Positions 26,726 through 31,217 of a DNA stretch of 64,000 nt are shown piece by piece (the stretch's first letter is position 1; the number at the start of each line of letters is the position of its first letter). The notes beneath the pieces were generated by a model, which saw nothing but the letters and a program-made list of their open reading frames with translations, ran no database searches and was not told the origin of the DNA. Source of the stretch: Escherichia phage PhaxI; the sequence record JN673056, one strand, 5' to 3'. A program made the translations under genes and the position numbers.

Positions 26726-27079
26726 TTAGGACAATTGCTTCAGTTTGTAAATCGTTTGATAGCACAAAGTTTTGATTTCATCAAGCGTATTTTGAAGATG
26801 GCTGTCGCATTGACCATAAATTCCGTTTACGTCGATAACAACACTGTTGACATACGATATAGGATCTGGGTTGTACAGTTTAATATTCTCAAACCCTGGG
26901 ACATATACACCACCCGCGCCGATATATGCCTCTGTGAAGGTATCCAGCAAGTCCTCCAGTTCCCCGTAGAACTCCCCGAGTGCCTTGTGCTTGGCATAGG
27001 ACGTTGTAACGAAGTGGAGGGCATGGGAGTGGGCTATAGCAAGCAGTCCACGGTTGATGAATATACTCGCATTGACCAT
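26726..27079 (-). CDS. Hypothetical protein (possible ferritin/Dps-like helical bundle; weak)
   Basis: Start set at MVNASIF; LLAIAHSHALHFVTTSYAKHKALGEFYGELEDLLD; the track ORF extends to 27139. Confidence 0.4.
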   Translation of the reverse strand: MVNASIFINRGLLAIAHSHALHFVTTSYAKHKALGEFYGELEDLLDTFTEAYIGAGGVYVPGFENIKLYNPDPISYVNSVVIDVNGIYGQCDSHLQNTLDEIKTLCYQTIYKLKQLS

Positions 27080-27135
27080 GATATTTACCCCTAAAAAGAA
27101 AATCCCCCTGTATTTAGGGGGATTGTATTTTATAA

Positions 27136-27681
27136 TCACTTTTTACCAAAAAACGATTTTAATAAATTATCAGGAATTTTTGGAAGACCTAATTTTGCCG
27201 CCAGTTCTTCTGGGGAATTACCCAAAATTTTTCTACCGTTGATGAGACCACCAACAAATTTGGTTCGATCTGTTGGACTGCGAAGGATAGTGGAGGCACC
27301 GCCAACTTTTGCGTCATACATCAGAATATGAGCGCCACGGTCACCGACGAAACGCCAGCCTTCCGCTTCAGTAACCTGACCTTTGTCAGCTGACTTGCCG
27401 AAGAAAAATTCAAAACCATCATGGACGGCAACAACTTCTTGGCCTTGGGTAATGCCGTGGGTCTGGTCTGGAGTTAGCTTCACTTTGATGGTGTTGCCAT
27501 TAGTCAATTCCAGATTATAGATGTCGGCCTGATTATCTGGAGTGATCTGGGTCACGGTGGCACCAGTACACCATTGGGTTCCGTCGGCCTGTTTGGTGAT
27601 GGTTACACTTTTGCCTTGTATGCCGCCATGAGTTTGCGGTTGTTGAGCTTGTTCTTTAAAATATTCGATAAACGGTTTCAT
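27136..27681 (-). CDS. Hypothetical protein sharing a C-terminal motif with the adjacent 795-aa protein
   Basis: C-terminus SPEELAAKLGLPKIPDNLLKSFF resembles SPDAIVRQLGLPQIPVNILNDF in 27733..30120. Confidence 0.45.
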   Translation of the reverse strand: MKPFIEYFKEQAQQPQTHGGIQGKSVTITKQADGTQWCTGATVTQITPDNQADIYNLELTNGNTIKVKLTPDQTHGITQGQEVVAVHDGFEFFFGKSADKGQVTEAEGWRFVGDRGAHILMYDAKVGGASTILRSPTDRTKFVGGLINGRKILGNSPEELAAKLGLPKIPDNLLKSFFGKK

Positions 27682-27732
27682 CGTGGATCTCCTAAGGATT
27701 TTGATGTATTTAGCCCCCGAAGGGGCTATGAC

Positions 27733-30120
27733 TTATTTCAGACTAATCTGAAGATTACCACCCAGCGATTGTTCATATTCACTGTATGCACTATCACCAT
27801 TACTCATAGCCCATTCGTCGGATTGGCGAGCGCGTTCAAGAGTCATGAGATTTGGCTCGGTAGGATTATAGCCTTTAGATTTCGCGTCGTTGTATACCGT
27901 TTGCAGGTATTGGTTGGCACGGTTGATCTGATCCTTGAATTCACGATATGCTCCTTCGGTCGTATTGCGACGGAAAGTGATATCCCAGGCAACATTCAGA
28001 ACTGTACCATTACTGGCTGTGTATACCTGCCAATCCAGATCTCGTCCATTAGGAGCGCTATCACGAATGGATCCGGCATAGGTGGCCAGATCGCCTGCAT
28101 TCTTACCACCAGCGACCTGATCTTTCGCCCGAGCCAAAGCATCAATGACTGCCGTGCGGTTTTTGGACTGTGCCAGATCTTTGTCTTGGAACATAATTGC
28201 ACCAAACTTACTGACGGTGATATCATTCAGGAACAGCTTGTTCGGGTTATAGTTTGATGAACCAAGATGGCTCAATTGAGCCGCAGCGTCTTTCAGGCGT
28301 TGTGAAGTCTCATTCAATGCATCTTGCACAGACTTGACAGATAACTGAATGTCATATCCGCTGCTATTGACTACATTTCGGCCATTTTCTGTCAGCATGG
28401 TCGTGATGTTGGCCTTATTACGATCGAAGTCGTAAGTCACGTTCGTAACGAACCGTGCGGCTTGCAGCTGGCTACCCGCAGGGAACTGGAAGTCCCAAGC
28501 CACAGAGAACCCATGAACGGTTTCACCAAATATCTTCGCATTGCTTGGGGCTTTCAGGTTCGCAGTGATGACAGCGTTATCACTGGAATTTGTGTTGATT
28601 TCGCCGAAGATAGTCTTCCCATCAGAAGACTGGACCATCAGAGTATCTTTGCTGCGCCAGTCATAACGAACAATAAACGTCGTTCGAGGGAACTCTTTTA
28701 TCAGATCGAGTTTGACTGCCTTACCCAGAGTAAATCGATTTAACAATGCATCGGCGATCTTCAAAGTAAACGAAATACAATCGACATAAGAATAACCCTG
28801 AGAACGGGAAACCTTTTGAATCGGGTATGGGGCACCGTTGATCGGAACAACACGACATTCCACTTCACCGTTGAACTGAGAATCAGCAGCACGGGATATC
28901 GCACTGACGATTTCAAAAGCAGCGTTTTTCACGTCGCCTTCCAGCATCAGCTGTTCATTGCCAGATAAATCAGAAACCACTTCTACAGAAAGTTTTCCGT
29001 TGACAATTCCCCAGAAATAAACCTGAATGTCCAGACCACCCGAAGTACGATATTTGCCCGCGCCGATTCGTGTTAGTTTCTCACCTGCATACATACCGAC
29101 CTGTTGTGGAGCATATGTGTCTACAATCCCCAGAAGGCGAGCAATATAACCCTGATTTCGTAAGTCATCCACAGATCCTGTTTTTGGCAAAGTCTGCATG
29201 TCTATTTTTCCAGAATCCCCCGTCATCTCTTTCCAGAAGATGGACGACTGCTTGGTGAAATCATTCAGAATATTCACAGGGATCTGCGGTAATCCCAGTT
29301 GGCGTACAATAGCGTCTGGGGATTGAGCGCGGATCCGTTTCTCGTTCATGATACTACCAGCATACACACCAGGTTCATTCGCGTGAGGTGCGATATTGGC
29401 GGTAATAGTCCGCCCACGTTCTTTACCAGACCAGACCAGCATAGGCTGAGTATGATCAGCTTTGGTCAGAATCCAGCGAGAATCGGCATTTATGGATTGG
29501 CTCAAATCATCCATGTCACCTTGTAGTGCGGCGTCACGAGCAGCCTGGTCAGGAACGTCACCGACTTTGTCTGGGTCGTCCCAAGTCACGCCTTTCATTT
29601 TCGGACCATCGAATACCTGAGCAGGATCCTTACCTTTACGCACAACCCATACGAATGCACGATCAGGGATAGGGGTATACGTCAGGTCCATGACATTGAG
29701 CTTCTGCTTCAGGCCGGACTGACGGATGATCTTCGGCAGGAGGGTAACACCACGTTCCAATGCTTTCTTGGAGAAGTTAATTGCAAAGCCGTCAATGGTT
29801 TTCCCCAAAGGCGTCGCCATGAATTGCTTTGTTGCTTCGATCATGGATGCGATGACACGCATTGGGTTTTTGAAACGACCGATTGCGTCTGGATAGGTCG
29901 AACCACGTTTCTGGCCTATGAAGACCTGACGAACGTTCTTGCCCAGCCCCTGCGGGGTATAAAATTGGATGCGGAATTCTTTTTCGTCTTCATCAACAAA
30001 TGTGAAGAAAATGTCACCAGCGTTCTTCTTACCGAATGTCAATTCATACGGGGATGAGTTAAACGCTTCGTCTAATTGTTTAGACTCTTCAAGAAAGTTC
30101 AAGAAAGATGGGATGGCCAT
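27733..30120 (-). CDS. Large hypothetical protein (795 aa)
   Basis: Long uninterrupted ORF; no catalytic motif recognised; shares a ~20-aa motif with the upstream 181-aa protein. Confidence 0.55.
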   Translation of the reverse strand: MAIPSFLNFLEESKQLDEAFNSSPYELTFGKKNAGDIFFTFVDEDEKEFRIQFYTPQGLGKNVRQVFIGQKRGSTYPDAIGRFKNPMRVIASMIEATKQFMATPLGKTIDGFAINFSKKALERGVTLLPKIIRQSGLKQKLNVMDLTYTPIPDRAFVWVVRKGKDPAQVFDGPKMKGVTWDDPDKVGDVPDQAARDAALQGDMDDLSQSINADSRWILTKADHTQPMLVWSGKERGRTITANIAPHANEPGVYAGSIMNEKRIRAQSPDAIVRQLGLPQIPVNILNDFTKQSSIFWKEMTGDSGKIDMQTLPKTGSVDDLRNQGYIARLLGIVDTYAPQQVGMYAGEKLTRIGAGKYRTSGGLDIQVYFWGIVNGKLSVEVVSDLSGNEQLMLEGDVKNAAFEIVSAISRAADSQFNGEVECRVVPINGAPYPIQKVSRSQGYSYVDCISFTLKIADALLNRFTLGKAVKLDLIKEFPRTTFIVRYDWRSKDTLMVQSSDGKTIFGEINTNSSDNAVITANLKAPSNAKIFGETVHGFSVAWDFQFPAGSQLQAARFVTNVTYDFDRNKANITTMLTENGRNVVNSSGYDIQLSVKSVQDALNETSQRLKDAAAQLSHLGSSNYNPNKLFLNDITVSKFGAIMFQDKDLAQSKNRTAVIDALARAKDQVAGGKNAGDLATYAGSIRDSAPNGRDLDWQVYTASNGTVLNVAWDITFRRNTTEGAYREFKDQINRANQYLQTVYNDAKSKGYNPTEPNLMTLERARQSDEWAMSNGDSAYSEYEQSLGGNLQISLK

Positions 30121-30578: not shown

Positions 30579-31217
30579 TTAAGGTGTTGGATTGACAACG
30601 GGAATATGGAACCTGATTCCAGAGACAATGTCCTTCAGCTGAGGCTTCCAGCCGTCCACCAGGCGGGACAACGCGTTAGAACCAGGATAGACAATAATGA
30701 TGTCGCTTCCGGTTACATTATGTTGAGGGAATTGTGACATGTATTGCTCCATCGTCACCCCTGGGTCTATCAACACAGGACCGACATCCGAAGATGCATA
30801 TGTTGCCCCCAAACCGTCGACGCCCCATGCTAGTATTCCATAATCAGGAATATTGGCTTCAGAAGTTATGGTGAATCCGAAGATACGATTCAGCGCAGAA
30901 AAATCATACACGCCGTGAGCACTGTCATATGTCAGATAACCCTTTGACAGCATATCAGCGAATATCGCGTCTGTGTCACCAGTTGCCGGAGTCGGTATGG
31001 TAAACAATAACTCACCAGCAGGAGGGGATGGATACGTGCCGAGCGCATAAAGGCACCAAGCGTCAATGCATTTCTTGATGAATGCTTCAGGCGCGACATA
31101 ATCCGCAAGGCGCATTGTACCGGAATATTCTGAAGTAATGATCCCTTCCTTCGCGCCCTGAATGGCCAGAAATACCATTATGTGTTCATATCCGGTCTGA
31201 GATGGAGTGATATTCAT
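30579..31217 (-). CDS. Hypothetical protein
   Basis: 212-aa ORF. Confidence 0.45.
   Translation of the reverse strand: MNITPSQTGYEHIMVFLAIQGAKEGIITSEYSGTMRLADYVAPEAFIKKCIDAWCLYALGTYPSPPAGELLFTIPTPATGDTDAIFADMLSKGYLTYDSAHGVYDFSALNRIFGFTITSEANIPDYGILAWGVDGLGATYASSDVGPVLIDPGVTMEQYMSQFPQHNVTGSDIIIVYPGSNALSRLVDGWKPQLKDIVSGIRFHIPVVNPTP

What the first reader, a model, noticed from the sequence alone, without database searches (positions are those of the whole stretch)
27136..30120. Adjacent 181-aa and 795-aa proteins share a ~20-aa motif
The C-terminus of the 181-aa protein (SPEELAAKLGLPKIPDNLLKSFF) closely resembles an internal segment of the 795-aa protein (SPDAIVRQLGLPQIPVNILNDF). Shared local motifs between neighbouring phage proteins can mark a common interaction or targeting element, or partial duplication. 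I could not assign either protein.
Basis: seen in the sequence. Interest (0 to 1): 0.45.

Follow-up and report, generated by a model that had tools for sequence, protein, structure and literature searches.

The report
Shared cargo domain in packaged phage proteins
Two neighbouring proteins of a CBA120-like phage share a real 75-80-residue domain, not just a 20-residue motif; both are known virion components and look like T4-style proteins that are packed into the phage head and probably injected with the DNA, built from interchangeable modules of unknown function.

Summary
The window is a Kuttervirus, nearly identical to E. coli phage CBA120. The two ORFs are orf109 (181 aa) and orf111 (795 aa).

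- **The similarity is real.** BLASTP gives E = 7e-8, and 0 of 2000 shuffles reach the observed score.
- **It is a whole domain.** It covers about 75 residues (181-aa residues ~104-180, 795-aa residues ~210-290). hhalign gives probability 96.7%, E = 3e-10.
- **The fold agrees.** Both copies are predicted as five strands plus two helices.
- **It is old.** Nucleotide identity is only 55%, so this is not a recent duplication.

The domain is an optional cassette. About 80% of related phages carry a different C-terminal module on the small protein, always breaking at residue 106. Some big-protein variants lack the domain. In Shigella phage MK-13 it sits directly behind a 10-residue leader.

Published proteomics places the homologues in purified virions of two phages. 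The small protein starts MKPFIEYFKE, close to the T4 capsid-targeting sequence MKTYQEFIAE. The big protein's N-terminal domain belongs to a family that also heads Alt-like ADP-ribosyltransferases, and is preceded by a conserved L-x-E protease site.

Best reading: head-packaged, probably ejected proteins with shuffled cargo modules. No ART domain is present, and the cargo function is unknown.

The parts
27733..30120 (-). 795-aa protein, 100% identical to CBA120 orf111. Multi-domain virion protein.
   Evidence: ORF. tblastn 100% identity to CBA120 orf111. The 97%-identical Sajous1 gp214 gave 196 spectra in CsCl-purified virions.
30067..30120 (-). Leader, aa 1-18 (MAIPSFLNFLEESKQLDE). It has two L-x-E sites (LEE-12, LDE-18). 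Cleavage is predicted after E18, before AFNSSPY.
   Evidence: E18 is invariant and L16 nearly invariant in 41 homologues. In the wider family a leader of variable length ends in [LI]-x-E directly before [AS]-F-[DN]. hhalign aligns this site with the known ITE-6 processing site of T4 Alt (PMC5694885).
29545..30066 (-). N-terminal domain, aa 19-192. Nearly invariant in the family. Alt-N-like 'carrier' domain.
   Evidence: Most residues are invariant across 41 homologues. It sits at the N-terminus of more than 80 representative proteins of 300-1400 aa. 4 of 61 carry Pfam ADPrib_exo_Tox and 3 have an ART domain homologous to T4 Alt 393-646. Foldseek hits three proteins annotated as Alt-type ADP-ribosyltransferases. 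hhalign against the T4 Alt N-terminus gives E = 4.7e-4, 161 colinear columns.
29221..29493 (-). Shared module in the 795-aa protein, aa ~210-300. Basic (pI 9.7), five strands plus two helices.
28111..29220 (-). Central region, aa 301-670. Well-predicted beta/alpha modules. Related proteins have cassette insertion or replacement points near aa 300 and 653/678.
   Evidence: pLDDT 80-93. Mosaic breakpoints. No significant PDB, Pfam or PHROG function.
27736..28110 (-). C-terminal domain, aa 671-795. It also occurs as many stand-alone small proteins.
   Evidence: More than 60 representative proteins of 85-290 aa match profile positions ~650-788. No Pfam family.
27706..27727 (-). GC hairpin (AGCCCC-TTCG-GGGGCT) overlapping CTAAATAC, 24 nt upstream of the 181-aa start. 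Putative late promoter.
   Evidence: Sequence. CTAAATAC occurs 4 times in the window, always on the coding strand and 22-30 nt before a start codon. LIMEstone1 has TATAAATA at the same position, annotated as a putative late promoter.
27136..27681 (-). 181-aa protein (CBA120 orf109). Small virion protein made of a CTS-like leader, a beta domain and the shared module.
   Evidence: ORF. Homologues are confirmed virion proteins: LIMEstone1 ORF080 and Sajous1 gp215 with 32 spectra.
27652..27681 (-). CTS-like leader, aa 1-10 (MKPFIEYFKE).
   Evidence: T4 IPII and IPIII start MKTYQEFIAE. The aromatic residues at positions 4 and 7 and the Glu at 10 are the positions shown to matter in T4 (PMC9026906). 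A strict pattern derived from the T4 CTS matches 1 of 698 Met starts in the window, this one.
27373..27651 (-). Conserved N-terminal beta domain of the small protein, aa 11-103. Possibly OB/TOBE-like.
   Evidence: Conserved in all 17 aligned homologues. Pfam TOBE hit is below threshold (E = 0.01). AF2 confidence is low.
27139..27372 (-). Shared module ('module A') in the 181-aa protein, aa 104-181, pI 9.9.
   Evidence: The same module sits directly behind a CTS in the MK-13 160-aa ORF (42% identity over 71 aa, E = 6e-12).
27092..27123 (-). Hairpin with a T-run (terminator-like) whose loop is CTAAATAC. It lies upstream of the DUF5856 gene.
   Evidence: Sequence. The element is identical in LIMEstone1, where it is annotated as a putative late promoter.
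26726..27079 (-). Neighbour gene: DUF5856, a ferritin/Dps-like 117-aa protein. Also a virion protein, so part of the same virion-protein cluster.
   Evidence: Pfam DUF5856 E = 2e-28. LIMEstone1 ORF078 is a confirmed structural protein. Sajous1 gp217 gave 10 spectra.
30579..31217 (-). Neighbour gene: DUF7270, a 212-aa protein. Its LIMEstone1 homologue is a confirmed structural protein.
   Evidence: Pfam DUF7270 E = 5e-120. LIMEstone1 ORF085.

Best explanation

Each protein is a carrier plus cargo:
- **Small protein:** a 10-residue T4-type capsid-targeting leader and a small beta domain.
- **Big protein:** a short leader ending in L-x-E, followed by an Alt-N-like domain.
- **Cargo:** one or more small modules drawn from a shared pool.

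This module is a basic domain of about 75-80 aa with five strands and two helices, and in this phage it happens to be present on both carriers.

Inferred mechanism:
1. The N-terminal signals bring the proteins into the gp22-like scaffolding core of the prohead.
2. The gp21-type (S77) protease trims the leaders after Glu, at E18 in the big protein and possibly E10 in the small one.
3. The mature proteins stay in the head with the DNA and enter the cell at infection.
4. The cargo modules then act on a host or DNA target that is still unknown.
5. Recombination swaps modules between carriers and between phages.

**Shown:** homology of the module, its optional and cassette-like distribution, virion association of the homologues, presence of a T4-type head maturation system, and the N-terminal sequence matches.

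**Inferred:** location inside the capsid, cleavage, ejection, and any cargo function.
For: **Module homology:**

**Cassette behaviour:**
- The small protein has a conserved region of residues 1-106 followed by alternative C-modules.
- 56 of 275 phage records carry module A, and the others break at residue 106.
- Big-protein homologues show insertions or replacements at ~192, ~300 and ~653/678.
- MK-13 has CTS + module A + a second module in one 160-aa ORF.
- The Sajous1 79-aa ORF body recurs as the C-module of 172-aa small-protein variants and inside big proteins P0158 and P0162.
- Phage rabagast has a 100% identical small protein but a big protein only 50% identical.

**Virion association:**
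- Sajous1 gp214, gp215, gp216 and gp217 gave 196, 32, 20 and 10 spectra in CsCl-purified virions (PMC10892097). Gene order was checked.
- LIMEstone1 ORF078, 080, 081, 082 and 085 are confirmed structural proteins (PMC3296691; mapped).

**T4-type head system in CBA120:** an S77 protease, a gp23-family capsid protein and a gp22-like scaffold with 13 L/I-x-E sites.

**CTS match:**
- Window: MKPFIEYFKE. Sajous1 79-aa ORF: MKGFPDFLKE. MK-13: MKGFQDFLTE. T4 IPII/IPIII: MKTYQEFIAE.
- The critical T4 positions are 4, 7, 8 and 10 (PMC9026906).
- The strict pattern is unique among 698 Met starts in the window.

**Alt-N link:**. The conserved [LI]-x-E boundary aligns with the Alt ITE-6 cleavage site (PMC5694885).

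**Late-promoter-like elements:**
Against: - No experiment places these proteins inside the capsid rather than on the tail or neck. The spectral counts do not localise them.
- The small protein of this phage has F-K-E, not L/I-x-E, at the predicted cleavage site, and contains no L/I-x-E anywhere. It may be targeted but not processed.
- The link to T4 Alt itself is weak by sequence. hhalign gives E = 0.65 with the low-diversity profile and E = 4.7e-4, probability 33%, with the broad family profile. hmmsearch is significant only for a single comparison.
- The AF2 model of the N-domain has low confidence, pLDDT 32-68.
- The precomputed Pfam family on the Alt N-terminus (PF26846) is not listed for the 795-aa homologues.
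- The conserved L-x-E-A-F-[DN] could be a structural motif of the domain rather than a cleavage site.
- The held supplementary MS tables contained no searchable peptides to test N-terminal processing.
- No function could be assigned to any cargo domain.
Confidence: 0.6

Rival explanations
1. The proteins are tail or baseplate components. Some database records call them 'tail completion protein' or 'tail fiber protein'. Hyde et al. proposed that gp214-217 form a ferritin/molybdate 'ferrojan horse' entry device on the tail. On this view the shared domain would be a common tail-attachment or receptor-interaction element.
For: The homologues are abundant in whole purified virions, which does not distinguish head from tail. 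Names given by some sources are 'tail completion protein' (UPM 2146, FrontPhageNews) and 'tail fiber protein' (PMBT18). The neighbour gene is ferritin-like. Phyre2 suggested a molybdate-binding domain for gp215 (PMC10892097), and Pfam gives a sub-threshold TOBE hit.
Against: - No Pfam, PHROG, PDB-sequence or PDB-structure support for any tail protein family.
- The genes lie among replication genes, far from the structural module.
- The authors themselves found no dependence on TonB or FeoB iron uptake (PMC10892097 abstract).
- The shared domain is optional in both families, which argues against a role in attachment.
- The N-termini match the head-targeting signals of T4.
Confidence: 0.15
2. 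The shared domain is the functional point. It would be a common binding element, for example for packaged DNA or for one host or phage partner, that lets the two neighbouring proteins act together or on the same target. On this view it is not merely shuffled cargo.
For: Both copies are basic, pI 9.7-9.9, as are the DNA-associated internal proteins of T4 (PMC9026906). The helical end resembles a helix-turn-helix-like hairpin; this is my own reading of the sequence and was not tested. The motif is the best-conserved part of the module across diverged versions.
Against: The two copies assort independently across phages. ST-W77 and Sajous1 have the big-protein copy but not the small-protein copy, and SFP10 has both with different partners. 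No DNA-binding family is detected. Conservation of the helical hairpin can be explained by the fold alone.
Confidence: 0.2
3. The similarity is chance or compositional, or is a recent local duplication or assembly artefact.
For: Only 14 identical residues in the original 36-residue match.
Against: E = 7e-8, and 0 of 2000 shuffles reach the score. Profile-profile probability is 96.7% over 75 columns. Predicted structures are concordant. Both genes are conserved in hundreds of phage genomes. Nucleotide identity of 55% excludes a recent duplication.
Confidence: 0.02

Closest known systems
[quoted passage not shown]
   Same: - A 10-residue N-terminal leader of the same pattern: M-K-x-[FY]-x-x-[FY]-h-x-E.
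- Small, diverse, non-essential-looking proteins encoded outside the structural gene block, in a variable locus.
- Present in virions.
- The phage has the same type of prohead protease (S77, gp21 family), scaffold and capsid protein (PMC9026906, PMC3012670).
   Different: - No sequence similarity beyond the leader.
- The P3 residue is Phe in this phage instead of Leu or Ile.
- The small protein has a conserved beta domain between the leader and the variable cargo, so the swap point is at residue 106 and not right after the leader.
- Packaging, cleavage and ejection are untested here.
Phage T4 Alt (head-packaged, ejected ADP-ribosyltransferase) and Alt-like proteins
   Same: - Large protein with a short N-terminal propeptide ending in [IL]-x-E, followed by an N-terminal domain of about 175 aa of the same family.
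- The family includes members with Alt-type ART domains in T4-like phage contigs.
- Alt is packaged at about 40 copies and is cleaved at ITE-6 (PMC5694885).
   Different: - The 795-aa protein has no ART domain. Its C-terminal 600 residues are unrelated modules of unknown function.
- Similarity to T4 Alt itself is marginal by sequence.
- Judging by spectral counts it is far more abundant than Alt would be expected to be. This is an inference, since spectral counts are not copy numbers.
Polyvalent proteins of phages and conjugative elements (Iyer et al. 2017, PMC5512222)
   Same: Multi-domain proteins thought to be packaged in the capsid and injected with the DNA. Domains are combined and reshuffled, interpreted as products of arms-race conflict.
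   Different: Polyvalent proteins are defined by combinations of recognisable enzymatic domains, and none is detected here. The only hit to a polyvalent-protein domain (LPD3) is below threshold at 14.9-16.4 bits against a cutoff of 27.
LIMEstone1 ORF78-85 'unknown structural protein' cluster (Adriaenssens et al. 2012, PMC3296691)
   Same: Direct, syntenic homologues of the genes in this window. They were confirmed by MS as virion proteins, and the authors noted that no function could be predicted.
   Different: In LIMEstone1 the big protein is annotated as two overlapping ORFs (082 and 081).

Membership tests
T4-type CTS-bearing internal head proteins | N-terminal leader of about 10 residues resembling MKTYQEFIAE, with aromatic or hydrophobic residues at positions 4 and 7 (targeting) and position 8 plus Glu10 (processing) | tested here: met
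   - 181-aa protein: MKPFIEYFKE.
- Homologues: MKKFSEFLIE, MKSFSNFLAE.
- Adjacent ORFs in relatives: MKGFPDFLKE, MKGFQDFLTE.
- Unique among 698 Met starts in the window.
- The 795-aa protein has a looser version, MAIPSFLNFLEE.
T4-type CTS-bearing internal head proteins | The phage encodes a gp21-type prohead protease and a gp22-type scaffolding core | tested here: met
   CBA120 orf190 matches Pfam Peptidase_S77 (E = 3.6e-28). orf188 matches T4_CASP (E = 9e-46) and has 13 L/I-x-E sites. orf187 matches Gp23. These genes lie outside the window.
T4-type CTS-bearing internal head proteins | The leader is removed by cleavage after Glu in an L/I-x-E motif | tested here: inconclusive
   The 795-aa protein has LEE-12 and LDE-18. 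The 181-aa protein has FKE-10 and no L/I-x-E, although relatives have LAE, LIE or LVE. Actual cleavage is not testable here, and the held MS supplements had no searchable peptides.
T4-type CTS-bearing internal head proteins | The protein is present in mature virions | tested here: met
   From the literature on close homologues: Sajous1 gp214 and gp215 (PMC10892097; identity checked) and LIMEstone1 ORF080-082 (PMC3296691).
T4-type CTS-bearing internal head proteins | Located inside the capsid and ejected into the host | not testable with these tools
   Needs fractionation, cryo-ET or bubblegram imaging, or injection assays.
Alt-like head-packaged ADP-ribosyltransferases | ADP-ribosyltransferase catalytic domain (Pfam ADPrib_exo_Tox, R-S-E type) | tested here: not met
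   T4 Alt hits ADPrib_exo_Tox at residues 374-614 (E = 6e-36). The 795-aa protein and its parts give no hit even at E <= 1. It is therefore not an Alt orthologue.
Alt-like head-packaged ADP-ribosyltransferases | Alt-type N-terminal domain preceded by a short propeptide ending in I/L-x-E | tested here: inconclusive
   For:
- Foldseek probability 1.00 to three proteins annotated as Alt-type ADP-ribosyltransferases, E = 5e-4 to 2e-3.
- The HMM family of the N-domain includes 4 of 61 ART-bearing proteins.
- hhalign against the T4 Alt N-terminus gives E = 4.7e-4, 161 colinear columns, with LDE-18 aligned to ITE-6.

Against:
- hhalign probability is only 33%.
- hhalign with the narrow profile gives E = 0.65.
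- The AF2 model has low pLDDT in this region.
- PF26846 is not recorded for the homologues.
Polyvalent proteins (Iyer et al. 2017) | Two or more domains with disparate, recognisable biochemical activities in one polypeptide | tested here: not met
   No enzymatic domain was detected. LPD3 scores below threshold. No significant structural matches in the PDB.
Tail completion or tail fiber proteins (names given in some records) | Sequence or structural homology to a known tail completion or tail fiber family | tested here: not met
   - No Pfam or PHROG functional family.
- No PDB sequence match.
- Foldseek PDB: no hit at E <= 0.001.

The most novel reading that the evidence does not exclude
The cluster is the Ackermannviridae counterpart of the hyperplastic internal-protein locus of T4. 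It would be a set of head-packaged, ejected anti-defence effectors whose small cargo modules, including the shared basic module, are swapped between three kinds of carrier: a bare CTS, a CTS plus beta domain, and an Alt-N-like domain. The swapping would be an arms-race response to host systems that attack the hypermodified hydroxymethyl-uracil-derived DNA of these phages. A further possibility is that the almost invariant Alt-N-like domain is itself an enzyme, since there are weak, recurrent GNAT-like structural hits. That would imply an unrecognised activity at the N-terminus of T4 Alt as well.
Probability: 0.15. Interest if true: 0.65.

Novelty: new member of a known kind. Interest (0 to 1): 0.4.

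Why it matters
Ackermannviridae (ViI, CBA120, Det7 and LIMEstone-like phages) are widely used for biocontrol and diagnostics. Even so, one of their most abundant virion proteins is still labelled hypothetical, or mislabelled as a tail protein. It ranked third by spectral count in Sajous1.

Reading the cluster as T4-type packaged and ejected proteins has several consequences:
- It gives a concrete, cheap experimental programme: N-terminal MS, leader mutants and injection assays.
- It suggests a ready-made route to package foreign proteins in these phages, as was done with the T4 CTS.
- It defines a set of unknown small domains that are good candidates for early host-takeover or anti-defence functions.
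- It shows that the Alt N-terminal domain is a general carrier with many different cargos.

As a finding about a '20-aa motif' it is modest. The motif is simply the best-conserved end of a shared domain.

Tried and rejected
1. **ART fold.** Pfam scans of the full protein and of three sub-regions at E <= 1 found no ART. Rejected.
4. **GNAT-like N-domain.**
   - No sequence support in 61 family members even at E <= 0.5.
   - The aligned region could not be determined. Left as a lead only.
5. **Direct sequence link to T4 Alt.** BLASTP found nothing. The narrow profile gave E = 0.65. Only the broad family profile gave a marginal colinear match. A search for more Alt N-terminal homologues returned only 5 proteins, too few for a good profile.
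6. **Module B.** The alternative C-terminus of the 189-aa variants had no counterpart in the big proteins.
7. **Peptide evidence for N-terminal processing.** No searchable peptide sequences were found in the held Sajous1 supplementary tables.
8. **Literature on a ViI-type late promoter motif.** The CBA120 paper states that it had not been identified. The text search for CTAAATA was uninformative.
9. **Recent DNA duplication.** Rejected at 55% nucleotide identity.
10. **Names for remote family members.** The cluster look-up gave almost none.

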